Source: an uncultured virus (IMG/VR IMGVR_UViG_3300026191_000001)
Lineage: Duplodnaviria; Heunggongvirae; Uroviricota; Caudoviricetes
Strand: one strand, 5' to 3'
Length of the DNA stretch: 20,000 nucleotides
Virus record (IMG/VR): IMGVR_UViG_3300026191_000001
Location: 61,405-81,404 of that record
A program made the position numbers and the translations under genes. Positions 894 to 13,500 of this stretch are shown piece after piece. Position 1 is the first letter of the stretch. Every line of letters starts with the position of its first letter. A model generated the notes under the pieces. It saw nothing but the letters and a program-made list of their open reading frames with translations, had not been told where the DNA came from and did no database searches.

Positions 894-922
894 ATAATAA
901 CCTAAAATTTGGAGATTGACGA
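894..922 (-). promoter_or_regulatory. Candidate sigma70-type promoter for the RHH gene
   Basis: Minus strand TCGTCA (922-917), 17 nt spacer, TATTAT (899-894). This places +1 near 887, just upstream of the SD at 874-880. The -35 matches only 4/6. Confidence 0.35.
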
Positions 923-924
923 TG
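907..924 (+). promoter_or_regulatory. Shared translation-initiation motif, copy 1 (ATTTGGAGATTGACGATG)
   Basis: Covers the SD and ATG(922) of the major tail gene. Can pair over 18 nt with 8301-8318, with two G-U pairs. Confidence 0.8.
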
Positions 925-1804: not shown

Positions 1805-1818
1805 GGAAATTGACGATG
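1805..1818 (+). promoter_or_regulatory. Shared translation-initiation motif, copy 2 (GGAAATTGACGATG)
   Basis: Exact 14-mer ending in ATG(1816) of the chaperone gene. Confidence 0.85.
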
Positions 1819-2163
1819 AGTGATAACCCTTCTGTAACCTTTAACATCAGCGTTAACGGCGAAGATAAAGAAGTTTTCATGAGTTTTGCGCTACTCAATA
1901 CCATCACAGGGTACTTTAGAAATGCGGAAGAACTCGAACAAATCCTCTTAAATTCCGACGTTCGAGCGAGTGTAATTACTGAACTCCTATCTGAAAGAAA
2001 TGAGACGGGCCGAATAACCCAGAATTTCGATATTAATACAATGAAGGCAGACCCAGACCAAATACTGGACTTGCTGGAATGGGTATCGGAGCACGTTGAG
2101 ACTTTTTTTATGAAGGCTCTACAAAGAGCCAAGCAACGAATGAAGAAGAAGCAGACCACTTAG
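1816..2163 (+). CDS. Tail assembly chaperone (lambda gpG-like)
   Basis: 115 aa acidic, helical ORF between the major tail and tape measure genes. Contains slippery T TTT TTT at 2103-2109. Confidence 0.8.
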   Translation: MSDNPSVTFNISVNGEDKEVFMSFALLNTITGYFRNAEELEQILLNSDVRASVITELLSERNETGRITQNFDINTMKADPDQILDLLEWVSEHVETFFMKALQRAKQRMKKKQTT

Positions 2164-2474
2164 AAGTCTTCAATTCTTGGTACCTAAAACTGTCGTTTGA
2201 AGAGCAGTTGTGTTTTGTTTTCGAAACGGTACCCAGCCAGCTACAGAAGATATTTTGGTCACATAGTAACCAAGATATCAAAGTTAAAACCAAGCTAACA
2301 CTTGGATTAAAGACTGTCACAATGACCCAAGAGTATGTGACGTTATTGAATGCCGCAGGGACTATCTTCGGTAAAAAAGAAAGTGGTTCAGGCAAGCCCA
2401 GACGTAAAACTACGAGCACGGTACCAAAAGATGAAATAGAAGCTGAGGCCCGAGCAAGAGCCGTTTTTGGGTAA
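2100..2474 (+). CDS. -1 frameshift extension of the tail assembly chaperone (gpGT-like; fusion 1816-2474, ~219 aa)
   Basis: The -1 frame is closed by TGA 2097-2099, then open from 2100 through the T7 run to TAA 2472-2474 (FYEGSTKSQATNEEEADHLEVFNSWYLKLSFEEQLCFVFE...). No convincing independent start or SD at the called TTG 2208. Confidence 0.8.
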   Translation, partial: DFFYEGSTKSQATNEEEADHLEVFNSWYLKLSFEEQLCFVFETVPSQLQKIFWSHSNQDIKVKTKLTLGLKTVTMTQEYVTLLNAAGTIFGKKESGSGKPRRKTTSTVPKDEIEAEARARAVFG

Positions 2475-2482
2475 CAATTAGG

Positions 2483-2496
2483 GGAAATTGACGATG
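2483..2496 (+). promoter_or_regulatory. Shared translation-initiation motif, copy 3 (GGAAATTGACGATG)
   Basis: Exact 14-mer ending in ATG(2494) of the tape measure gene. Confidence 0.85.
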
Positions 2497-5400: not shown

Positions 5401-7815
5401 GGAAATGTTTATAGAAGTCTGATAGATACAGCGCTGCCGAATTTTGGGGATGATCTTGCGGGTATCAACGAGCTTATTCGCAACATCAACCCTCAAGAGG
5501 CCGGTGCTTATGGCCGTGCACAAGAGGCACGCACGCAAACACAAGCATTGCAAAGCCAGTTATTTAATATCCTAAATCAATCTCCGCAAGAACTAGATTC
5601 CCTAATGCAGCAATTTGGCCTATCCGGTGATGCACGGGATAAAGCCGAAGAGTATATAAACAACCTTGCTCAAGAAATGCTTAATCGAGCGAACACGTTG
5701 CTGGAAGTGGAGAACAACCAGAAACAATACGATTCGTTAGACCCGAGTATCAAAGAGGAAGAGCGAAAAATTTCCCAAGTGGTAATTAAGAATCGTCGCG
5801 AACTGTTAAATGATATCGCTGAGACCAGCGAGGAAATCAATGCATTAACAGAGAAAAACAAAGACTACGAGACCAGTGACTACTTAGGCACATTTAAGGA
5901 CATAAACACACTGGTTCGTGACCAGATAAAAGCCTTGCTAGAAGATGAGAAAGAGGCCATTGCGGAATTAGAAGCGCAAGGGGTTTCTAACCCTAGACTT
6001 GTGCTTCAGGAACAAGGCTATTACCAAGCCGCAGGGGAAGCGAGAGGTAAGCTTGAGCGCTCACTACAATCGGCGGCGAAGGATGCTAGGCCGGATGCTA
6101 ATTTATATTACCCCGCACGACTGGCGGAGTTAGATAAAGAGCTGGATGTACTTCGTGATCAACTTCGCCAAGTTACGGACCGAGAAACTTCAGATGAAAT
6201 AAAAACTAAGCTCCAAGAACTAAACCTTGAGCGAGAGCGTGTGGCCAATGAGCAAGACACTCTCTTTGCGGCCATTGATGGTAACTCTCCTGTCTCTGTT
6301 GCTCAGCGAGACAGAGAGCTAAATGCTCGGGTTATCTTAGGGAACCAAGAATTCGATACGATACAAGCAAAGACCTTTGCAAGAAGTCGTCTCGAACGTT
6401 CTATTGGTGAACAACAAGACCTAGACGTTCGTGATTTTAAATTGCTTGGTGATGATGATGAGTTATCGCGTCTCTTAACTGATGTTATTGGTACGGAACA
6501 AGGTGAGATAAACAATGCTTTGGCCAAAGCACGGCAAGAAGCTGAAAAACTAAGAACCCAAGCGGAAGACACCCGCTATGAAGCCCAGCGCTATATTGAT
6601 ATCTCAAACAATGAAGGCTACACCGACGAAACCCGAGAGCGTGCCGCGGGTATTGCTAACGATATTGAGAGCCAAGCAGTACAACTAGAAAAAGAGGCGA
6701 TCGCTTTAGAAGAACAAGCCGTTCGACAAGCGAAAGAAGCCTTAATGGATTTTGCTAATTATCTTCAAGAAACCATTGTTGATAACCCCGCGCTAACGGA
6801 TGGCCGCTCTAAAGCGAAAACAAGAAAGTCTATTGAAGGACTTGAAGGGCAAAATATTAGTCTTGACTCTAATCTTGAGGACCTTTCACAAGCTTCTAAA
6901 GAAGCGGATCGTGGCCTACGGGAATTTAGAGACCAGATGGGGGACACGGTTCGAAAGATAAATCAGAGTATTTATGAAAGTGACCAGTTTCGCCAAACTC
7001 AAGCCGCGATTTATGGCACGCAGTATTCTCCTCTGGGGGAGCAAGGGGTTGATGAAACCTACGGAGGTCGAGGAGGAAAAGGTGTAGCTTCTCAGTTCGC
7101 TAACGCGGGTTCCTATATTGTTGATGAAGTTAATAGTAGTTACGAAAACTTTGACGTCTTAACCCAAATGACGATGGAAGCGACGGAAGCTGCTAAAGGT
7201 TTAGGTGATGCTTTTGGAGCAACGTTCGCGGATATCATTACAGGGGCCAGTGACTCAGAAGACGCATTCAGGTCATTAGGGGTAAGCATACTTACCGAAA
7301 TGGCCAATATCGCGACCCGCGCTTTAGCTAACCAGTTAATAATGTCACTCTTCTCTGGTCTCGGCCTGATGGGTGGAGGTATGGGCGGCGGAATGGGTGG
7401 TTTCTTTGGTGGAGGGATGTTTACTGGGGGTCCAGTAATAGCCGGTAGTTATAAGACTGGGGGATTAATTACCAGTGGGATGTCTACTCGAGATTCAACC
7501 TATGCCAAAGTGAGTCGTGGTGAGTTTGTTCTTCGCAAAGCGGCAGTAGATGCTTTAGGCCTAGAGACGGTCAAAGCACTCAACTCTGCCGACCCTAATA
7601 GTGTCAAAGATAAAGAAATGATGAATAGCAATGCTACCCAGGCTATGTCGGCATCAAATAGTGAAGGCGGCGGCGTTGTTAATGTTTACGTGGTAAGTGA
7701 GAAGCAATTACCACCTATGGGGCCAAACGATGTGAAAGCTATTATTGGTGATGATATCGCGAGAGACGGTGAACTTGCTTCACTGGTAGCACAGGTAGCA
7801 ATGAGGACTAAATAA
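2494..7815 (+). CDS. Tail tape measure protein
   Basis: ~1773 aa, A/Q/E/L-rich coiled coil. TP901-type core (TKFTATDVADAAITLGQAG, LGAMANSGIRAGSTLGTGLRQ). Typical C-terminal motif (GGLITSGMSTRDSTYAKVSRGEFVLRKAAVDALG). Confidence 0.95.
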   Translation: MAGSNASNTIRNTLLNFTVDPKSKKVIEELTREFEKLERVTQAASQQLQANIKAIKDTPQGRSELAQNAKNEVNTQRKILSENQKNARALLDQIALTLGKGLNPQQQQQLVKGLNQAFGEITGRFTKQAQAQAKKQAKDLADYYDLQFRKNPTVRKGSQLYKSRVNTLNESELRTGIQRQKLLRSGAQSALNDAIRLGDTSLEKKAQNALKKLESGLVAAEARLKKFTDASKKAEVAQDTQARTVRRTLKSYNDDEFRLNPTVAKGQKVKASQISTLNRTQLEDAIARNKVYENAARKALKSSLAPETRNKTLENNAGKALRELEESTKLAKARLKEFADAAAEAKRAEKAAQKAQRPSTQVTEQQRVARRIEQIRQSQTNQRLDGGAQLFRNQGQLLRNYAVMGAGVGGLATSATFSTELDRQFKQLQSIVNLTNEEMEELSKNLIDVSEKTKFTATDVADAAITLGQAGLGQNDIQNAIEGVTLFATAVGSDLKSAVDLATSTLGVFNKDSSQMINIVDKMTTAVNSSKLNLDKLALGLQYSGNLAAQSNVTFEETVSALGAMANSGIRAGSTLGTGLRQIIISLQKPSESFTEIVHNLGLSMSDLDITTHGLIPVMKTLAESGFTVRDAMESMEVRAASAYGAFANNISVAEDLSEQMRIGGSAARANDTQMEALANQLDRLGSISKSIVYESMEPLLDTITKLTEKTADFLSVVRDLGPILSALAVPASILGGVLATRSVLRLGAGLLGGVDMLTGGKGKGSTISRLAKVATGRGLGTAAGFAARAIPGVGLATAVGTAGVYGYQYLDGRARANDRVDSTQAALNRGTSETKVYEDQLKKVGSAIDTLILKQNDLTNNESLQREIRRLNDEFRQQGLYIDDSIDSYDKLITKMKEFEDATRDGVGYLQNQNRNNFVDNSEAKLNELFSIGFFDSSERRLLAEEKGTDVSVGSGKTATQRGRFASRGNVYRSLIDTALPNFGDDLAGINELIRNINPQEAGAYGRAQEARTQTQALQSQLFNILNQSPQELDSLMQQFGLSGDARDKAEEYINNLAQEMLNRANTLLEVENNQKQYDSLDPSIKEEERKISQVVIKNRRELLNDIAETSEEINALTEKNKDYETSDYLGTFKDINTLVRDQIKALLEDEKEAIAELEAQGVSNPRLVLQEQGYYQAAGEARGKLERSLQSAAKDARPDANLYYPARLAELDKELDVLRDQLRQVTDRETSDEIKTKLQELNLERERVANEQDTLFAAIDGNSPVSVAQRDRELNARVILGNQEFDTIQAKTFARSRLERSIGEQQDLDVRDFKLLGDDDELSRLLTDVIGTEQGEINNALAKARQEAEKLRTQAEDTRYEAQRYIDISNNEGYTDETRERAAGIANDIESQAVQLEKEAIALEEQAVRQAKEALMDFANYLQETIVDNPALTDGRSKAKTRKSIEGLEGQNISLDSNLEDLSQASKEADRGLREFRDQMGDTVRKINQSIYESDQFRQTQAAIYGTQYSPLGEQGVDETYGGRGGKGVASQFANAGSYIVDEVNSSYENFDVLTQMTMEATEAAKGLGDAFGATFADIITGASDSEDAFRSLGVSILTEMANIATRALANQLIMSLFSGLGLMGGGMGGGMGGFFGGGMFTGGPVIAGSYKTGGLITSGMSTRDSTYAKVSRGEFVLRKAAVDALGLETVKALNSADPNSVKDKEMMNSNATQAMSASNSEGGGVVNVYVVSEKQLPPMGPNDVKAIIGDDIARDGELASLVAQVAMRTK
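2923..3540 (+). repeat. Diverged ~109 aa tandem duplication in the tape measure N-terminus
   Basis: YDLQFRKNPTVRKG...TLNESEL...AEARLKKFTDA versus YNDDEFRLNPTVAKG...TLNRTQL...AKARLKEFADA. AACCCTACCGT occurs at 2944 and 3271 (327 nt apart). Confidence 0.8.
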
Positions 7816-8201
7816 TGTCATTGGAACAGTTTAATTTTATTTACCATAAGGTCTCTCATCGTTATAGGGACCGCTCAACTAAGTTGACCTTAGGTAATCA
7901 ATGGGACTATGTAACTAAGCCTACGGCCCCTGTTAGCAGGATATTTACATTGAAATATTCAGTAATGAAATATTTTGAAAATCCCCAACTTCTAGGTCCA
8001 AAGGAACGTCGGTATAGTGCTGATCATTTGGATGAGTTTTACCAACGTCACGAAACTTGGAAAGAGTTTATTTTTCAACACCACAAATTCGGGAATGTCG
8101 TGGTAAGGTTTGACCAACCCCTTGAGCTACCGGAAGGTATTACAGGGGGGGATGGCGCTATTGAACCTTTTACTATTACGTTGCGTGAGGTAGGACTTTA
8201 A
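7815..8201 (+). CDS. Distal/minor tail protein (lambda gpM-like)
   Basis: 128 aa, coupled to the tape measure stop (TAATG). Motifs LDEFYQRHETWKEFIF and the terminal FTITLREV resemble the gpM family. Confidence 0.75.
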   Translation: MSLEQFNFIYHKVSHRYRDRSTKLTLGNQWDYVTKPTAPVSRIFTLKYSVMKYFENPQLLGPKERRYSADHLDEFYQRHETWKEFIFQHHKFGNVVVRFDQPLELPEGITGGDGAIEPFTITLREVGL

Positions 8202-8238
8202 TTGATAAAATATTTATTAATTAATTTAAACAATATTA

Positions 8239-8267
8239 TTGACAATAAAATTGTGAGTCCGTAGTAT
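8239..8267 (+). promoter_or_regulatory. Near-consensus sigma70 promoter with AT-rich UP-like element
   Basis: TTGACA (8239-8244), 17 nt spacer, TAGTAT (8262-8267). Preceded by ~40 nt of almost pure A/T (8199-8238). Confidence 0.85.
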
Positions 8268-8274
8268 TGACCTC

Positions 8275-8352
8275 GGTTAGTAGTCCATGTGGCTCCTAAT
8301 TATCGTCAATTTCCAAATCAACGCCTCAGCCTTGCTGGGGTGTTCTGTTTTT
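8275..8352 (+). ncRNA. Candidate trans-acting antisense small RNA (~78 nt)
   Basis: Bounded by promoter and terminator. Predicted 5' hairpin 8275-8301, unpaired seed 8302-8320, terminator hairpin 8321-8343. The seed is the reverse complement of the motif at five tail gene starts. Ends are estimated. Confidence 0.75.
8321..8352 (+). terminator. Intrinsic terminator closing the candidate sRNA
   Basis: ACGCCTCAGC-CTT-GCTGGGGTGT (10 bp, two G-U pairs) followed by TCTGTTTTT. The G-U pairs only work on the + strand transcript. Confidence 0.75.
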
Positions 8353-8410
8353 GGGCGCTTGAAAAATATTCAATCTATTCCTCTTTTCGGTATACTAGGC
8401 GAAAATTGAG

Positions 8411-8424
8411 GGAAATTGACGATG
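8411..8424 (+). promoter_or_regulatory. Shared translation-initiation motif, copy 4 (GGAAATTGACGATG)
   Basis: Exact 14-mer ending in ATG(8422) of the gpL-like gene. Confidence 0.85.
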
Positions 8425-8910
8425 AAAGAACTTTCACAAGAAATTCAGTCTCAACGGCATTCGCTGACCCCTGAAGACTTAACCACCTATTTAGAAATCA
8501 TTATCGAAGACACCGATGGCCAGCCGGTTATTATTCGTCTTACGGATAGAGAAACCCGTGACTGGAATGGTTCCACATGGGTACATTCACCTTTTAAAGT
8601 CTCTGGTATATCCAATAAATCCACCGGAGAGAAGAACCGTCCTAGCCTATCACTCCCCAACGAGGGGGGGCTATACAGTTATTATCTAAACCAAGGCTTG
8701 TTAGAAGATTCGGTGGTGACACGCTACAAAGCACTTCCTCACGAAAAAGGTGGCTCTCTAACGTCTCGCCACGTTTTTTATGTTTCTCACCCTAGTAATA
8801 TTAGCTCGTCTATTCTCACCCTTCAGTTAAGAAGGCTTTCTGACGGTAATAAAACTAAGTTCCCCCCACGCAGATATATCCAGCCCGAATTTAGTACGGT
8901 AATAATATGA
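8422..8910 (+). CDS. Minor tail tip protein, lambda gpL-like (short, cysteine-free)
   Basis: 162 aa. WNGSTWVHSPFKVSGI...RPSLSLPN, VVTRYKA and FPPRR resemble the gpL N-terminal domain. Position between the M-like and K-like genes fits. Confidence 0.7.
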   Translation: MKELSQEIQSQRHSLTPEDLTTYLEIIIEDTDGQPVIIRLTDRETRDWNGSTWVHSPFKVSGISNKSTGEKNRPSLSLPNEGGLYSYYLNQGLLEDSVVTRYKALPHEKGGSLTSRHVFYVSHPSNISSSILTLQLRRLSDGNKTKFPPRRYIQPEFSTVII

Positions 8911-9404
8911 TCAAAGAATTAAACACCTTTTGCGGCCATATCTACGAACAGGGTATTCAAGACTGTTACACCCTAATTAGAGATTTTTATAAAACTCGTT
9001 ACCAGATGGAATTGACGAATTACGCGAGGCCGAACAACTGGATTCAAGACCCGAATTTAGATTTCTTTTCTAGGCTGTTTGAAAGAGAGGGCTTTGAGGA
9101 CACGAATAATTGTCCGCACAAAGTGAGGTTCGGTGATGTATTAATGATGCGAATTGTCGGAAGTGAAGTAGTAAACCACGTAGCTATCTACGTGGGACGA
9201 CAAAAGATCCTTCATCATTTGCAAGGCCGCGTAAGTGAAATCGTTGACTATGACGATAAATGGCGTTTTCGTGTGGTTCGTGTGATTCGACACCCAGAGA
9301 TTCAAAAAACCACGGATGCTGTAGCCCTTCACAATCTGCATAAAGGTTTACCTATTCACCTGCGTGCCAAATTACGGAGTGCTAAAAGTGAAAAAGTTGA
9401 GTGA
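8907..9404 (+). CDS. NlpC/P60-family tail tip protein (C-terminal half of lambda gpK type)
   Basis: GIQDCYTLIRDFY (catalytic Cys), GDVLMM, NHVAIYVG and ILHH motifs. ATGA overlap with the previous gene. Confidence 0.9.
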   Translation: MIKELNTFCGHIYEQGIQDCYTLIRDFYKTRYQMELTNYARPNNWIQDPNLDFFSRLFEREGFEDTNNCPHKVRFGDVLMMRIVGSEVVNHVAIYVGRQKILHHLQGRVSEIVDYDDKWRFRVVRVIRHPEIQKTTDAVALHNLHKGLPIHLRAKLRSAKSEKVE

Positions 9405-9723
9405 TTTATGGAATGAGAAAGCCGAGCGCTGTGGCTTTATTCTAAAGTCCGGTGAAATTGTTGAAGTCGATAACATAGCTGAAGACCCCAAGAATGAGTT
9501 TGAAGTCTCAGAGTCAGATTTTGAAAAGTACTACGAGGACACCGTGGCCTCGTGGCATTCACATACCGATGATTTTTCAAATCTTAGCTTATCAGACTAC
9601 TACACCTTTTTAGCTCTTCCAGAATGGGACCATTGGATAGTGTCGAAGTACAAAGTGGTTAAATTCTCGGTGAAGTCTGAATGTGTAATTTTAGAGGAGG
9701 TAGTCCCTCATGGTGACAATTAA
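9388..9723 (+). CDS. JAB/MPN (Mov34) domain tail tip protein (N-terminal half of lambda gpK type)
   Basis: ERCGFI ... WHSHT ... LSLSD matches the JAMM E-x-HxH-x7-S-x2-D pattern. GTG 9388 has GGAG 8 nt upstream, so it is preferred over 9364. Confidence 0.88.
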   Translation: MKKLSDLWNEKAERCGFILKSGEIVEVDNIAEDPKNEFEVSESDFEKYYEDTVASWHSHTDDFSNLSLSDYYTFLALPEWDHWIVSKYKVVKFSVKSECVILEEVVPHGDN

Positions 9724-10477
9724 TCTCGTGGGGTTTGGGGATACTATCCCTAAGGTTATTAAAACCGTTGCGGCCAATTATAGGGAAGCCCTTGAAGCAT
9801 TAAAACTGCAAGAGCCTTTTAATCCGCGTAAGGCTAAGGTTCGCTATGTTTGTGAGATAGAGGGAATTAACTCTACGCTAGACTTAGATGAGCCCGTTAA
9901 TGAAGGGGTAATGACCCTAAGACGCAAGCAAACACTTAAAACACTAAAAGGTTTTCAAGGTAGTGGGGGTAGTAATGGGTGGGTAAAAATAGTAGTCGGT
10001 ATTATCTTAATATCGATAGCCATTATAGCCCCACCAATTGCCGTGGGATTTACGGCTTTAGGCTCTGCGGGTATGGTAAGTGTTAATGTTTTATTAGCTA
10101 ATATTGGTTTTGCCTTAATCGTAGGGGGACTAGCACAGGAGCTCATGCCCACACCCGAGAACAATACTTCAGAAGAAACCAGCAATACCGCAACGTCTTA
10201 CCCTAACACCATACGTTCAGGTACCCCAGTGGCGATGATTTTTGGGCGCCATAGGTTCGGTGGCCACTTGTTCCAGTTTAATATTGAAAGTGTCGGTAGG
10301 TCTTCTGCAGATATTAGAAATTTTACTAACGTTGTTTGGGATGAAGTTAGTGACAACCGACGAGATTCTTGGTCTACTCTATACTTCAATAGTGAGTCTC
10401 AGGAAGTAGGCCAAACTACTTGGACCCCAAGAGGGGGTCGAGAGATTGATGGTATAAGAAACCAACGAACACTTTAA
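9710..10477 (+). CDS. Tail assembly protein, lambda gpI-like
   Basis: SD GAGGAGG. N-terminal ubiquitin-like part ending GSGG, then hydrophobic segments (KIVVGIILISIAII), then NTIRSGTPVAMIFGRHRFGG typical of gpI. Confidence 0.85.
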   Translation: MVTINLVGFGDTIPKVIKTVAANYREALEALKLQEPFNPRKAKVRYVCEIEGINSTLDLDEPVNEGVMTLRRKQTLKTLKGFQGSGGSNGWVKIVVGIILISIAIIAPPIAVGFTALGSAGMVSVNVLLANIGFALIVGGLAQELMPTPENNTSEETSNTATSYPNTIRSGTPVAMIFGRHRFGGHLFQFNIESVGRSSADIRNFTNVVWDEVSDNRRDSWSTLYFNSESQEVGQTTWTPRGGREIDGIRNQRTL

Positions 10478-10486
10478 AATCTGGAT

Positions 10487-10504
10487 AAATTGACGATATT
10501 GGGG
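10487..10504 (+). promoter_or_regulatory. Shared translation-initiation motif, copy 5 (AAATTGACGATATTGGGG)
   Basis: 12-nt perfect complement to 8301-8312, immediately upstream of the GGGG SD and GTG(10510) of the J-like gene. Confidence 0.75.
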
Positions 10505-10509
10505 CTTAA

Positions 10510-13500
10510 GTGGCGCATAACACGTTCAAAGGCCGCGGAGGGGGTAGTGGACCCTCTAATGACGCGGACAACCTATTTTCTACCGACGCATTTGAATTCG
10601 TCCTTGGAGTATCCGAGGGACCGATAGGCGGCGTCGTGGGTGATACCCCAGAAGAAAAGCTTCGCAATATCTTCATTGACGATACACCGGTATTCAACAG
10701 CCTAAATCAAACTAACTTTGATAACGCCAGCTTAATGCTGCGTTTCGAGCAAGGTACTTTGATTTCAGCAAAAGACGACCCTGAAGAAGGACAAACCCCT
10801 ATATGGTTTGCTTTAGGGGGACAAAATATTATTCAGCAAGTTTCTGCGAACTTAGCGTATCTCGCGCCGGTGACACGAACTACGGTTACAACAGTGTCGG
10901 GGTTCGATGAGATTGAGTTACGTTTTACGGTATCCCAGTTAGTTCGCTACACTGATGATGGTTCAAAAACCCACCGAGCTAACTTTCGAATCGAGTATAA
11001 AAACCTACTGGATGATAACTGGGTTTCTAGCTCTATGGTTATTTCGGGTAAAACCACGGTCAGTCCTTTTATAAAAGTTCATAATATACGCCTCCCTAGA
11101 ACTAAACCTAGTGACCAGTTTGAGATTAAAGTTACCCGTTTGACTGAAGACTCTAATGAGGAAGAAGTAGCGGCGATATCTTGGACTAGCTATGAGCTGT
11201 TAACTAAATCTGGTGACGCCTACACCGATAATGGTGTGGAATATAGCGACTCGGATTTAGAGTATCACCCAGGGCTTGCGATGATGCATGTGGTCGGGGT
11301 TCTTGGCCAGCAGCTCACAAATATCCCAAATGTCAGTGCCAACTATGACGGGATAAAGTGTTCAATACCTTCCAATTACGATCCTAAAGCCAAGACTTAT
11401 GAAGAGAGCTCGGCATGGGATGGTCAGTTTAAAGCTCAAAAGGCTACCACTGACAACCCCTTCTGGATTGCTTATGAGCTGGTTACCAATCCTGTTTGGG
11501 GCATAGTAAAAGCAAACCCCCGTGTGAAGATTAATCGTTATACCGTTTATCGTATGGCGAAGTACGCGGATGGTTATGACTTCCAGACTAATGAAAAGAA
11601 CTTAACCAATCCTATTACAGGACAGGAAAAGTGTCCTCGTTATACCTTTAATGCGGTATTGACTGAGCCTCAAAATGGGTGGGACGTTCTTCGTTATGTC
11701 TTAGGTAGTGCCTTCGCTAGGCCGATTGAAGAAGACTCAGGCGAAATAAAATTTATCGCAGATTTGCCAAGCCTACCCGTTGCTTGGGTTACTCCTGAAA
11801 TGTGTATGACCGAAACGGATGGGTCTCCATTCTCGTATAATTTTTCGGCACTATCTGAGCGCCACAATGCTGTGACTTCCAGCTACATCGATGCCTCACT
11901 AGATTATGAACAACAGTACGTTGCCGAGATTCGGGATGAGGACTCTATCCTTAAGTATGGATTGAATACCCACGAGTTTGATGCAAAAGGCGCGACGGAT
12001 ATCTGGGAAGTAAAACGTAGAATGACGTTTTATATCTCTTCCGTAACAACAGAGACTAGAACGGTTTCTTTTTCCGCACCCCAATTAGGGATGGAATTTG
12101 AACCTATGGATATTATCAATATTGTGGACCCCGAGACAGGGCATGCCTATTCGGGAAGAGCGGTTAAGTTAGAGAGCAAAGCGGTCACACTTAGAGACCC
12201 AGTGTATTTCGATGAGGGCGGGACCTATAACGTAAAAGTTATGGGGAAATACGAAAACTTCGATTTCACAATGGATGTGCTCCCTTCCGATATTGGTAAA
12301 CCTATCTACAGGTTGAAGCTAAAACAACCTATGCCGGACCTTGCACTATTTAATAAATATGCGCCGGTTGTGGTTTCAGCTTCAAGAAATGGCCAGCTTA
12401 TAGGTCTGCCCAAGCCATGGCGCATTATCACGGTAAACGAGAATGATAGCGTCCCCGAGCTTTATGACTTCTTTTGTCAGGAAGTAAACCTCAACAAACA
12501 CACAGATGCCGACAACCTTATTATTTCGGAAGCCCCTAAATACTCTTTTCTTCTGAGGCCACAAGTTCGAAAAGTTAAGAATCTTCGCGTTGTTGATGAA
12601 GAGCATATTCAGGTTCGTGGTGTAGAGCAGATAAACCTTTGGATTGGTTGGGAGCTAGAGGCCCCATTACCTCCTGGGGGTTATTTCGAGGTTCGCATTA
12701 CCGAACAATCCGTTAATGGTCGAGAGTACACCACAAAAACCAACAACCTTTATTTCGAAATTCAGAACGTAAAGCTTGGGGATATTCAAATAGAAGTACG
12801 CAGTGCTCAAGGGGATAACGCCAGCCCGTGGGCCGTTCTGCAATGGTCTACAACGATGGTTTCTGCCGAGGATTTGAGAGACGCGGGTATTACACCAGAA
12901 ATCACTATTCGCTATGAGAACTATGCTCTAACTATTGATAGTAAAGTAATGTTTGATTTCGGCTCGACAGAAGTTAACCGCGTTAACTTACTTGAGACCA
13001 ATGGTGTGTTGGGTATTCAGTTTAAGATATACGACGATGTGGACCCAGATAACCGCGTGCACCTTTTGACCAAGACCGCAAAGTCTTCGCTAATTATCCC
13101 TAAAAGCGAGTTTGAGGTTGCTGTTGAAGGTAAGGAACTGCCTTCAGATTTATATATTACAGCACGCGTAGTTGATCTTGTCGGAGGCTTTTACCCCGAC
13201 CTGTTCCAAAGTCCTCTAGCATTCCAAGTAAGTAACCCCGCGCAAGAGATAACGAACTTAAACTATCAATACGTTTTCTCGGATGAAGATCCGCATTTGG
13301 TAACGTGGTATGATAACAACTATGGGTATGAAATTACGCTTTATAAGCCGGATGGCCAGAGCGCGATTTCTAATTACAAGATATACGACAGTAGCCAAGT
13401 CTTCGGGTTCTTACGAGCAGCCGAGGGCTATGTCGTAAAAGTTAAGGGTTTTACTAATACACTCAGCTACGGCAAGCCTAAGACGATAACATTCACGGTT

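What the first reader, a model, noticed from the sequence alone, without database searches (positions are those of the whole stretch)
8239..8352. Candidate phage sRNA antisense to the start regions of at least five tail genes
Seen: a stand-alone unit TTGACA-17-TAGTAT, then ~78 nt, ending in a hairpin plus U tract, between the gpM-like and gpL-like genes. By-eye folding gives a 5' stem-loop (GGUUAG-U-AGUC-CAUGU-GGCU-C-CUAAUU, 8275-8301) and a terminator stem (8321-8343), leaving AUCGUCAAUUUCCAAAUCA unpaired. 8302-8314 is the exact reverse complement of GGAAATTGACGAT at the starts of the chaperone (1805), tape measure (2483) and gpL-like (8411) genes. It pairs over 18 nt (two G-U) with the major tail start (907-924) and 12 nt perfectly with the J-like leader (10487-10498). 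A given 13-mer is expected about 6e-4 times in 40 kb of uniform random sequence. Established: sRNA pairing over SD/AUG usually blocks translation, and well-known phage antisense RNAs (lambda OOP, P22 sar, P1 c4, P4 CI) act mainly on regulatory transcripts. Inference: one host-RNAP-transcribed RNA gates translation of a virion-gene regulon, for example silencing leaky late expression in a lysogen, timing assembly, or blocking related superinfecting phages. I do not recognise a described system of this form.
Basis: partly seen in the sequence, partly recalled or inferred. Interest (0 to 1): 0.95.

Follow-up and report, generated by a model that had tools for sequence, protein, structure and literature searches.

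The report
Phage small RNA mirroring gene-start tag
A marine temperate phage puts one private 13-letter tag just before the start codon of about a third of its genes and keeps a small RNA gene whose exposed middle is the exact mirror of that tag, so a single RNA probably controls translation of many phage messages at once.

Summary
Observation confirmed and enlarged. Window 8239-8350 holds a sigma-70-type promoter, a 5' hairpin, an 18-nt unpaired stretch and an intrinsic terminator. The unpaired core (8302-8314) is the exact antisense of GGAAATTGACGAT. That is not a five-gene tail motif but a genome-wide start-associated sequence: 28 exact copies in the 81-kb phage, 36 sites directly before an ATG on both arms, and one exact reversed copy. 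All 12 related viral contigs found keep the element. It is better conserved than the flanking genes, has no conserved ORF, and its stems and seed covary. Where the seed has G instead of A, 11 start tags per genome carry C, against 0-1 in five A-seed genomes. Metatranscriptome contigs begin at 8272-8288 but run on into gpL. The phage encodes a conserved ProQ/FinO protein. Best reading: a trans-acting anti-start-tag sRNA that represses translation (0.6). Main rival: a cis leader of gpL. Closest known: Cluster K SAS, RocR/RocC, FinP/FinO. This scan noted similar elements before on other phage DNA.

The parts
8239..8267 (+). P1: sigma-70-type promoter TTGACA-17-TAGTAT of the small RNA
   Evidence: Scores 10 of 12. 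It is one of 9 sites in the 81-kb genome with >=10 of 12, and the only one with a perfect TTGACA at 17-bp spacing. Both hexamers and their distance to GGTTAG are kept in all 9 sequence variants, while the spacer is only 6 of 17 identical in the distant clade.
8274..8350 (+). Predicted small RNA (about 75-77 nt), here called the anti-SAS RNA
   Evidence: Fold. Identity to the distant clade is 67 of 79, against 255 of 387 and 320 of 489 for the flanking genes. No frame stays open across the variants. No Rfam match. One RNA contig ends within 2 nt of 8274 and another begins at 8285-8288.
8275..8301 (+). 5' stem-loop (10 pairs)
   Evidence: 10 pairs are 100% paired in 9 variants; 2 pairs vary on one side only, U-G>C-G and G-C>G-U.
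8302..8319 (+). Single-stranded seed; the core 8302-8314 is the exact antisense of GGAAATTGACGAT
   Evidence: Unpaired in both the MFE and the centroid structure. Exact reverse complement. A>G in the distant clade is matched by T>C in start tags.
8320..8350 (+). Intrinsic terminator (11-pair stem, 3-nt loop, U tract), preceded by A-rich CCAAAUCAA
   Evidence: Top terminator-like hit of the window. 11 pairs are 100% paired, with one compensatory pair C-G>U-A, and the loop length varies.
8359..8373 (+). Palindrome or hairpin TTGAAAAATATTCAA between the terminator and gpL
   Evidence: Unique in the genome and kept in G006. The half-sites are kept while the spacer differs in L030. Folds as a 5-bp hairpin in the read-through RNA. 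Function unknown.
8369..8396 (+). Possible weak second promoter P2 (TTCAAT-16-TATACT) for gpL
   Evidence: Seen by eye. It falls below the threshold of the scan. The TTTTCGGTATACT block is invariant in 9 variants. Unproven.
8411..8424 (+). Start tag (SAS) plus the ATG of the gpL-like gene (8422-8910)
   Evidence: Exact copy. Pairs with the seed in the fold of the read-through RNA. T>C in the clade whose seed has G.
2483..2496 (+). Start tag plus ATG of the tape measure gene
   Evidence: Exact copy. PHROG tape measure hit.
1805..1818 (+). Start tag plus ATG of the tape-measure chaperone gene
   Evidence: Exact copy. phrog_37198.
911..924 (+). Start tag variant GGAGATTGACGAT plus ATG of the probable major tail gene
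   Evidence: 1 mismatch, which still pairs as G.U. 19-bp duplex at -24.9 kcal/mol, the best in the genome.
10485..10497 (+). Degenerate tag ATAAATTGACGAT in the leader of the J-like gene (GTG at 10510)
   Evidence: 2 mismatches. It is 12 nt from the start codon. Duplex -17.5 kcal/mol.

Best explanation
Window 8239-8350 is the gene for a conserved small RNA of about 75 nt. It has its own sigma-70-type promoter (start near 8274), a 5' hairpin, an 18-nt open stretch and an intrinsic terminator. The open stretch is the exact antisense of this phage's private start-associated sequence GGAAATTGACGAT(G). That tag covers the weak Shine-Dalgarno GGA, the spacer and the AUG of about 36 of roughly 100 genes on both arms of an 81-kb temperate siphophage. 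The RNA most likely acts in trans. It would pair over SD-spacer-AUG of tagged messages (13-19 bp, -20 to -25 kcal/mol) and so block ribosome loading, giving one switch for a third of the phage's proteome. The phage's own ProQ/FinO-domain protein is the likely helper. Transcripts that read through the terminator carry the same stretch as a leader, where it can also close the gpL start in cis. Shown: the anatomy, conservation, accessibility, complementarity and co-variation. Inferred: that pairing happens in cells, that it represses, the ProQ link, and the biological purpose (silencing leaky prophage genes or related superinfecting phages, or timing).
For: (1) Anatomy: promoter 10 of 12; fold with an open seed, z -3.2. 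(2) Scope of the tag: 28 exact copies and 37 at <=1 mismatch, control 0. The copies follow gene orientation (minus strand up to 53 kb, plus strand from 54 kb). 36 of 46 sites at <=2 mismatches sit directly before an ATG with an open frame. 30 of 102 crude ORF starts give a duplex <= -20 kcal/mol, against 0.05% of 2000 in-gene control windows. (3) Conservation: the element is present in all 21 related loci that keep a gpM-gpL spacer, as 9 distinct variants, and in 12 of 12 viral contigs found by pattern. The RNA is 67 of 79 identical to the distant clade, against 66% and 65% for the flanking genes and 6 of 17 for the promoter spacer. No ORF is conserved. (4) Structure: 99.7% of 306 pair cells are paired, against 30-50% when partners are slid. 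There is one compensatory pair in the terminator and one between seed and tag. (5) Pairing rule across genomes: five genomes with seed A carry 0, 1, 0, 0 and 0 copies of the C-variant RAATCGACGAT. Two genomes with seed G (which can pair with C or U) carry 12 each, one of which is the seed's own inverted copy. 14 of 30 orthologous tags are T>C in G006. (6) In the own genome, 10 of 11 internal departures from the tag keep pairing through G.U (p 0.013 against transitions only). (7) The longest duplexes are with distant genes (major tail 19 bp; three others 18 bp), not with the adjacent gpL start, whose 15 pairs are followed by an internal loop. (8) A ProQ/FinO-domain gene: Pfam E 7.5e-13, NCBIfam ProQ, Atlas features and structure. 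It is kept in 5 of 5 relatives searched. The RNA has a terminator hairpin, at least 5 U and an A-rich 5' flank, the features the ProQ FinO domain is reported to prefer (PMC7367173, abstract read). (9) Expression hint: in run X15 an RNA contig of depth 127.8 ends within 2 nt of 8274, after upstream contigs of depth 7.7-15.8. In X16 the contig 8288-8523 has depth 26.9, against 3.3-7 and 4.1-4.4 for its neighbours.
Against: No discrete 75-nt transcript has been shown. The RNA data are assembled contigs with one depth figure each; they give no strand or ends, and RNA libraries can hold DNA. Three contigs (X15, X16, X17) bridge the terminator into gpL, and one (X18) runs from gpM across the promoter into the element. 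The read-through RNA folds with the seed paired to the gpL tag, so a purely cis role explains the local compensatory change equally well. Co-variation rests on one seed change between two clades, so the genome counts are not independent. Exchange of a whole structural module could explain why C-variants cluster there (6 of 7 late against 8 of 23 early, p 0.03). The commonest wobble-compatible change (A4>G, 7 of the 10) also makes a better GGAG Shine-Dalgarno. The ProQ link is only co-occurrence. One RNA set against about 36 messages of early and late genes alike has no obvious logic in a lytic cycle. The host is unknown, so its 16S rRNA could not be compared with the tag.
Confidence: 0.6

Rival explanations
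1. Cis-acting leader only. The promoter at 8239 drives the gpL-K-I-J operon, and 8274-8421 is its 5' untranslated leader. The terminator attenuates transcription, and the antisense stretch closes the gpL ribosome site 97 nt downstream to keep minor tail proteins scarce. Complementarity to other gene starts is a side effect of all genes sharing one tag.
For: Contigs of three RNA runs span from 8244-8288 through the terminator into gpL. The MFE of 8274-8460 pairs 8301-8318 with the gpL tag (-53.9 kcal/mol, z -3.5). The A>G / T>C change is compensatory for this pair too.
Against: A strong terminator lies between the two partners. In L030 the gpL tag departs at two positions (TGGAATTGACGAT) while the seed stays matched to the general tag. 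The seed's extension (CCAAAU) matches the flank ATTTGG of distant genes, not the gpL flank. The C-variant rule holds for 11 other tags per genome, which a cis pair does not need. A strong promoter placed to make a message whose first gene is shut is odd.
Confidence: 0.2
2. The tag is read by something else, either the host ribosome or a phage RNA- or DNA-binding protein. The reversed copy is then one more site for that reader (for example on double-stranded DNA), or a titrating decoy, and is not a pairing partner of the messages.
For: Pope et al. left open whether SAS bind a host or phage product, RNA or protein (PMC3203893). The tag contains GGA/GGAG at Shine-Dalgarno distance. A second repeated element, a G/C-rich palindrome, lies upstream of 8 of 46 tags and looks protein-bound or terminator-like.
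Against: A DNA site would not need a promoter, an open single-stranded display or a terminator, all of which are conserved. The tag lies 0-3 nt from ATGs and inside operons directly after stop codons, which points to an RNA-level role. No minus-strand promoter-like site lies near 8320-8450, and the minus-strand mini-ORF is not conserved. No RNA polymerase gene was found among 82 proteins scanned with Pfam or 14 with PHROGs.
Confidence: 0.1
3. A functional small RNA whose real targets are host messages, or a mere terminator/insulator between tail genes. The antisense tag would be a relic of recombination between tag copies.
For: Phage sRNAs that act on host genes are known (recalled, not searched in detail). 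The element has the promoter-gene-terminator layout of a prophage 'moron' (recalled concept).
Against: The seed is the best conserved part (16-18 of 18 in all variants), and its one change is matched by changes in the phage's own tags. A relic would decay. The host genome is unknown, so host targets could not be searched.
Confidence: 0.07

Closest known systems
Start-associated sequences (SAS/ESAS) of Cluster K mycobacteriophages (Pope et al. 2011, PMC3203893; passages read)
   Same: Both are 13-bp asymmetric repeats present many times per genome, a few nt from mostly ATG starts and in gene orientation, with a single reversed copy not tied to a gene start. In both, a subset has an upstream inverted repeat. 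Function was left open ('RNA or protein'), and a 2025 survey still called it unverified (PMC12699233, passages read). In phage Anaya I found 16 forward copies and 1 reversed copy. The reversed one lies in the gp96-gp97 spacer, in the 10-nt loop of a 6-bp hairpin on the gene strand.
   Different: The sequence is unrelated (GGAAATTGACGAT against GGGATAGGAGCCC), and the host lineage differs (probably Pseudomonadota, marine, against Mycobacterium). Here the tags are on both arms, including head and tail genes. Here the reversed copy sits in a complete promoter-hairpin-seed-terminator unit with co-variation, which has not been described for Cluster K in the papers I searched.
RocR sRNA with the FinO-domain chaperone RocC of Legionella (review PMC9977716, passages read)
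   Same: One trans-encoded sRNA with a terminator hairpin, bound by a FinO-domain protein, pairs with several messages and represses their translation. A mobile element (plasmid pLPL) carries its own copy, RocRp.
   Different: RocR has four competence messages as targets. Here there are about 36 phage messages that share an identical tag. No sequence or Rfam relation was found. Binding by the phage ProQ-like protein is untested.
FinP antisense RNA with FinO of F-like plasmids (review PMC9977716)
   Same: A mobile element encodes both a FinO-domain protein and a two-hairpin antisense RNA that covers a ribosome-binding site.
   Different: FinP is cis-encoded opposite its single target, traJ. Here the RNA is trans-encoded with a long open seed and many targets.
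Classical phage antisense RNAs (lambda OOP, P22 sar, P1/P7 c4) and the T4 RegA translational repressor (recalled, not looked up)
   Same: These are phage-made repressors acting at translation starts. RegA, a protein, recognises the start regions of many early messages.
   Different: The RNAs act on one or two regulatory transcripts, and RegA is a protein. None reads a genome-wide identical tag by base pairing.

Membership tests
SAS-type start tags (kind defined by Cluster K phages) | Asymmetric repeat of about 13 bp, many copies per genome, rare elsewhere | tested here: met
   28 exact copies and 37 at <=1 mismatch in 81 kb; reversed-letter control 0. 23-28 exact copies in four complete or near-complete relatives.
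SAS-type start tags (kind defined by Cluster K phages) | Lies within a few nt of the start codon, mostly ATG, in gene orientation | tested here: met
   36 of 46 sites (<=2 mismatches) have an ATG 0-3 nt after or overlapping the tag, with an open frame.
SAS-type start tags (kind defined by Cluster K phages) | Single reversed copy not at a gene start | tested here: met
   There is one exact reversed copy in each of G000-G004 and in G006. A second, 1-mismatch reversed copy lies inside a coding region at genome 32612 and is not kept in G006.
SAS-type start tags (kind defined by Cluster K phages) | Consensus GGGATAGGAGCCC; restricted to the non-structural arm | tested here: not met
   The sequence is different, and the tags also precede head and tail genes. 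This is an analogue, not a homologue.
Trans-acting base-pairing sRNA with intrinsic terminator | Own promoter and terminator; no coding frame | tested here: met
   (in silico only).
Trans-acting base-pairing sRNA with intrinsic terminator | Accessible seed complementary to the translation starts of targets, co-varying with them | tested here: met
   Seed unpaired. Duplexes <= -20 kcal/mol at 30 of 102 ORF starts. Seed A>G goes with tag T>C. This is one evolutionary event only.
Trans-acting base-pairing sRNA with intrinsic terminator | Discrete transcript of the predicted size | tested here: inconclusive
   RNA contigs begin at 8272-8288 in two studies, but they bridge the terminator. Contigs give no ends or strand.
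Trans-acting base-pairing sRNA with intrinsic terminator | Changes target translation in trans | not testable with these tools
   Needs reporters or toeprints.
FinO/ProQ-dependent RNA systems | FinO-domain protein encoded by the same element | tested here: met
   PF04352 E 7.5e-13; NCBIfam ProQ 2.5e-9, below the curated cut-off; Atlas structure TM 0.66-0.71 to ProQ clusters; found in 5 of 5 relatives.
FinO/ProQ-dependent RNA systems | RNA ligand with a terminator hairpin, >=4 U tail and A-rich 5' flank | tested here: met
   The sequence 8311-8350 and the fold. Criteria from the abstract of PMC7367173.
FinO/ProQ-dependent RNA systems | Protein binds and is needed for the RNA's action | not testable with these tools
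   No RNA-protein prediction is on offer.
Known RNA families (Rfam 15) | Match to a curated covariance model | tested here: not met
   0 hits at gathering threshold in the window and in the other 61.5 kb; 0 hits at E<=1 in 8150-8450.
Cis-acting leader/attenuator | Co-transcribed with the regulated gene; mutually exclusive terminator and antiterminator folds | tested here: inconclusive
   Contigs bridge into gpL. In the read-through fold the terminator stays and the seed pairs with the gpL tag. No antiterminator alternative was seen.

The most novel reading that the evidence does not exclude
The phage runs a three-part RNA circuit on a private translation code. The parts are (i) a start tag on about a third of its genes, (ii) a constitutively made anti-tag sRNA, carried like a moron among the tail genes, that with the phage's own FinO-domain chaperone keeps every tagged message silent in the lysogen and disables related superinfecting phages, and (iii) a conserved early non-coding RNA that begins with the sense tag but has no start codon (genome 49349 to about 49205, minus strand). 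This third RNA would soak up the anti-tag RNA on induction. The same tag plus single anti-tag layout in Cluster K mycobacteriophages, and in several unrelated phages noted by this scan, would then be a general and so far undescribed mode of phage gene control. It would also answer what SAS are for.
Probability: 0.25. Interest if true: 0.9.

Novelty: new variant of a known kind. Interest (0 to 1): 0.8.

Why it matters
This locus offers a concrete candidate reader that can be tested on the bench. It is a small RNA with promoter, open seed and terminator, its seed co-varies with the tags, and it lies in a phage that also brings its own FinO-domain RNA chaperone. If one RNA gates a third of a phage's proteome, that is a new scale of RNA control for a virus. 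It would also suggest a translational form of immunity between related phages. The tag and anti-tag pair would be an orthogonal translation switch of possible use in synthetic biology. My searches of the held library found no paper describing an anti-tag RNA. Subscription journals are largely missing from that library.

Tried and rejected
Rfam gave no family for the element or anywhere else in the genome. No tRNA or tmRNA was found in the window. blastn of 7800-10500 against the GenBank phage collection found no match.

Two scans of species genomes, one by protein profile and one by the RNA pattern, found nothing, so no host was named. The flank of provirus G001 holds only mobile and defence genes and no tRNA, so it gave no host clue either.

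More of the metagenome contigs L031 and L032 could not be fetched. Held viral contigs of the same clade were used instead.

More distant relatives exist as proteins (gpL-like at 50-62% identity, P0012-P0014).

L033 (gpM-like, 30% identity, GC-rich) has no gpM-gpL spacer and no tag, so it was left out of all counts.

A coding reading was rejected. Both frames through the element meet stops in 4 of 9 variants, and the ATG is absent in 6 of 9. The minus-strand mini-ORF after the reversed tag is not conserved.

A phage-RNAP promoter reading of the tag was rejected. No RNAP domain was found among the 82 + 14 proteins scanned, and tags sit directly after stop codons inside operons.

Alignment A3 mixed two different proteins by mistake and was not used. 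Sites with 3 mismatches look like chance matches and were not counted. The parts of the stretch that the RNA contigs left uncovered are not used as evidence.

Full report
WHAT IS THERE. The window is the right end (61405-81404) of an 81,404-bp virus record with direct terminal repeats and 44.7% G+C. It carries a lambda-like tail module: probable major tail protein, tape-measure chaperone, a 1773-aa tape measure, gpM-like, gpL-like, further minor tail proteins and a J-like protein. The rest of the genome holds a tyrosine integrase, RdgC, RadC, an ATP-dependent ligase, helicases, a gpA-type terminase and a ProQ/FinO-domain protein. Three relatives are classed as proviruses, so the phage is temperate. 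DNA runs holding it are marine, seawater and sponge metagenomes.

THE OBSERVATION.
- TTGACA-17-TAGTAT lies at 8239-8267.
- RNA 8275-8350 folds into a 5' hairpin (8275-8301), an 18-nt open stretch AUCGUCAAUUUCCAAAUC and an 11-pair terminator followed by CUGUUUUU. The MFE is -22.6 kcal/mol, z -3.2, and 1 of 200 shuffles folds as well.
- 8302-8314 is the exact reverse complement of GGAAATTGACGAT at 1805, 2483 and 8411. The copies at 911 and 10485 differ by 1 and 2 letters.

THE MOTIF IS GENOME-WIDE. The whole genome has 28 exact copies and 37 with at most one mismatch, against none for the reversed-letter control. The copies follow gene orientation: minus strand up to 53 kb, plus strand from 54 kb. 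Of 46 sites with at most two mismatches, 36 stand directly before an ATG with an open frame (the AT of the tag is usually the AT of ATG), out of roughly 100 genes. Tagged genes include excision-region, recombination, replication, head and tail genes. Some tags follow a stop codon at once, inside operons. This is a start-associated sequence in the sense of Pope et al. 2011. Exactly one exact copy per genome is reversed, and that copy is the finding. Relatives carry 23-28 exact copies each.

IS THE ELEMENT REAL AND FUNCTIONAL? Scans with the gpM-like protein, a profile of it, and the RNA pattern gave 21 loci with the element. They fall into 9 sequence variants in two clades plus one short contig. 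One distant locus (L033) has neither spacer nor tag and was left out.
- Between the window and the distant clade the RNA is 67 of 79 identical and the seed 16 of 18. The flanking genes are 255 of 387 and 320 of 489 identical, and the promoter spacer only 6 of 17, with both hexamers and their distance to the RNA kept.
- Both reading frames through the element are broken in 4 of 9 variants.
- On the alignment, 99.7% of 306 pair cells are standard pairs, against 30-50% when partners are slid.
- Changes in the 5' hairpin are one-sided and pair-keeping. The terminator has one compensatory pair (C-G to U-A) and a loop of variable length.
- Variation is small, so this is consistent support rather than strong proof.

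SEED AND TAGS CHANGE TOGETHER. In the distant clade the seed reads AUCGUCGAUUUCC (A to G) and the adjacent gpL tag reads GGAAATCGACGAT (T to C). The rule extends across the genome. The C form (RAATCGACGAT) occurs 0, 1, 0, 0 and 0 times in five genomes whose seed has A. It occurs 12 times in each of two genomes whose seed has G, one of the 12 being the seed's own inverted copy. A seed G can pair with C or U, while a seed A can pair only with U. Of 30 orthologous tag pairs between the own genome and G006, 14 are T to C: 6 of 7 in the structural arm and 8 of 23 in the early arm (p 0.03).

In the own genome, 10 of 11 internal departures from the tag at gene starts still pair with the seed by G.U wobble. 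The commonest of them also improves the Shine-Dalgarno sequence. The longest predicted duplexes are with distant genes: major tail 19 bp at -24.9 kcal/mol, and three others at 18 bp. The neighbouring gpL start has 15 pairs followed by an internal loop. In L030 the gpL tag has drifted at two positions while the seed keeps the general form. Together these points favour a reader of many tags over a purely local pair. The phylogenetic sample amounts to one seed change.

EXPRESSION. Six metatranscriptome runs hold parts of 7600-9100. Contigs of four runs were laid on the stretch.
- In X15 a contig of depth 127.8 ends within 2 nt of 8274, the predicted start. Upstream contigs have depth 7.7-15.8.
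- In X16 a contig covering 8288-8523 has depth 26.9, against 3.3-7 upstream and 4.1-4.4 downstream.
- In X17 a contig starts at 8244, preceded by adapter-like letters.
- In X18 a contig runs from gpM to 8331.

Three contigs continue through the terminator into gpL. Contigs show neither ends, strand nor local depth, and RNA libraries may hold DNA. This is therefore a weak hint that the promoter is active, and a clear sign that read-through, or overlap of transcripts, exists. The read-through RNA folds with the seed paired to the gpL tag.

A POSSIBLE HELPER. The phage encodes a 170-aa ProQ/FinO-domain protein (Pfam E 7.5e-13). The NCBIfam ProQ hit is below the curated cut-off. Atlas feature and structure neighbours are ProQ/FinO clusters, mostly Pseudomonadota. 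The gene is kept in 5 of 5 relatives at 71-99% identity. FinO domains bind terminator hairpins with at least four U, and ProQ ligands are enriched in A-rich 5' flanks (PMC7367173, abstract). The RNA has all three features. FinO/FinP and RocC/RocR are the known systems in which such a protein helps an antisense RNA close ribosome sites; RocR has four targets (PMC9977716, passages). The link here is co-occurrence only.

MECHANISM. Most likely (0.6) the element is a trans-acting anti-tag RNA that covers SD, spacer and AUG of tagged messages and blocks initiation. Its promoter-gene-terminator layout among tail genes resembles a prophage moron (recalled concept). That fits expression from the lysogen, to silence leaky phage genes or related incoming phages. 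This purpose is inference.

The main rival (0.2) is a cis leader that only throttles gpL and the genes behind it. The two readings are not exclusive.

COMPARISON WITH WHAT IS KNOWN. Cluster K SAS share the design but not the sequence, the host or the restriction to non-structural genes. In phage Anaya I found 16 forward copies and one reversed copy. The reversed one lies in the gp96-gp97 spacer, displayed in the 10-nt loop of a 6-bp hairpin on the gene strand (one genome, local fold only, z not significant). Earlier notes of this scan describe similar tag and anti-tag pairs in several other uncultured phages, one of them also between two tail genes of a temperate phage. They are unchecked leads, and none lies on this genome. 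Searches of the held library for an anti-tag RNA found none.

VERDICT. This is a real, conserved non-coding element. I rate it a new variant of a known kind: a base-pairing sRNA, possibly FinO-assisted, aimed at a phage-wide private start tag. Interest 0.8.

Noticed in passing
L022:9205-9349 (-) = own genome 49205-49349, outside the window: A second conserved non-coding unit. The sense tag GGAAATTGACGAT is followed by AAAGCC, not ATG, then about 125 nt and a strong terminator (CCCCGAG...CTCGGGGTTTTCTTTTT). It holds the longest perfect complement to the small RNA in the genome, 19 nt. It is kept in 5 of 5 relatives with frame-breaking indels. In G006 the body differs, but the layout and a C-form tag are kept. 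It may be a decoy or sponge for the anti-tag RNA.
   Followed up: partly
L020:11502-12014 (-) = own genome, outside the window: A phage-encoded ProQ/FinO-domain protein of 170 aa, with no start tag of its own. It is conserved in 5 of 5 relatives.
   Followed up: partly
own genome, upstream of tags at 34852, 35896, 38151, 39087, 41529, 45029, 47204, 47909: A G/C-rich palindrome (GGGGGGAAnnTTCCCCCC), often followed by AATTAACTT, lies upstream of 8 of 46 tags. In G006 the palindrome is GGTGGGGAnnTCCCCACC at 10 of 42 tags (an 11th site has a G-run form), so both arms changed in concert. It recalls the ESAS of Cluster K. It could be a set of terminators or a protein site.
   Followed up: partly
window 8359-8373: The palindrome TTGAAAAATATTCAA is unique in the genome. 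It lies between the terminator and gpL and is kept in all variants, with the spacer changed in L030. It could be an RNA hairpin or an operator at a weak promoter.
   Followed up: partly
L021:12604-12924 (+) = own genome 32604-32924: A plus-strand gene in the minus-strand arm. By eye its product has a helix-turn-helix-like stretch, but there is no family hit. It contains a 1-mismatch reversed tag in its first codons, which is not found in G006.
   Followed up: partly
L054:3440-6696 (flank of provirus G001): The antiviral reverse transcriptases Drt3a and Drt3b lie beside a UvrD/Rep-like helicase and recombinases, next to the prophage integrase end. This is a defence island at the attachment site.
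   Followed up: no
L075:34860-34890 (Mycobacterium phage Anaya, record about 59860-59890): The single reversed Cluster K SAS sits in the gp96-gp97 spacer as the loop CCUCCUAUCC of the hairpin GCGCGG/CCGCGC on the gene strand.
   Followed up: partly
window 1816-2474: Two short ORFs lie between the major tail gene and the tape measure gene: 1816-2163, a chaperone family hit, and 2208-2474, with no hit. This is the usual place of the G/GT frameshift pair. No slippery site was looked for.
   Followed up: no
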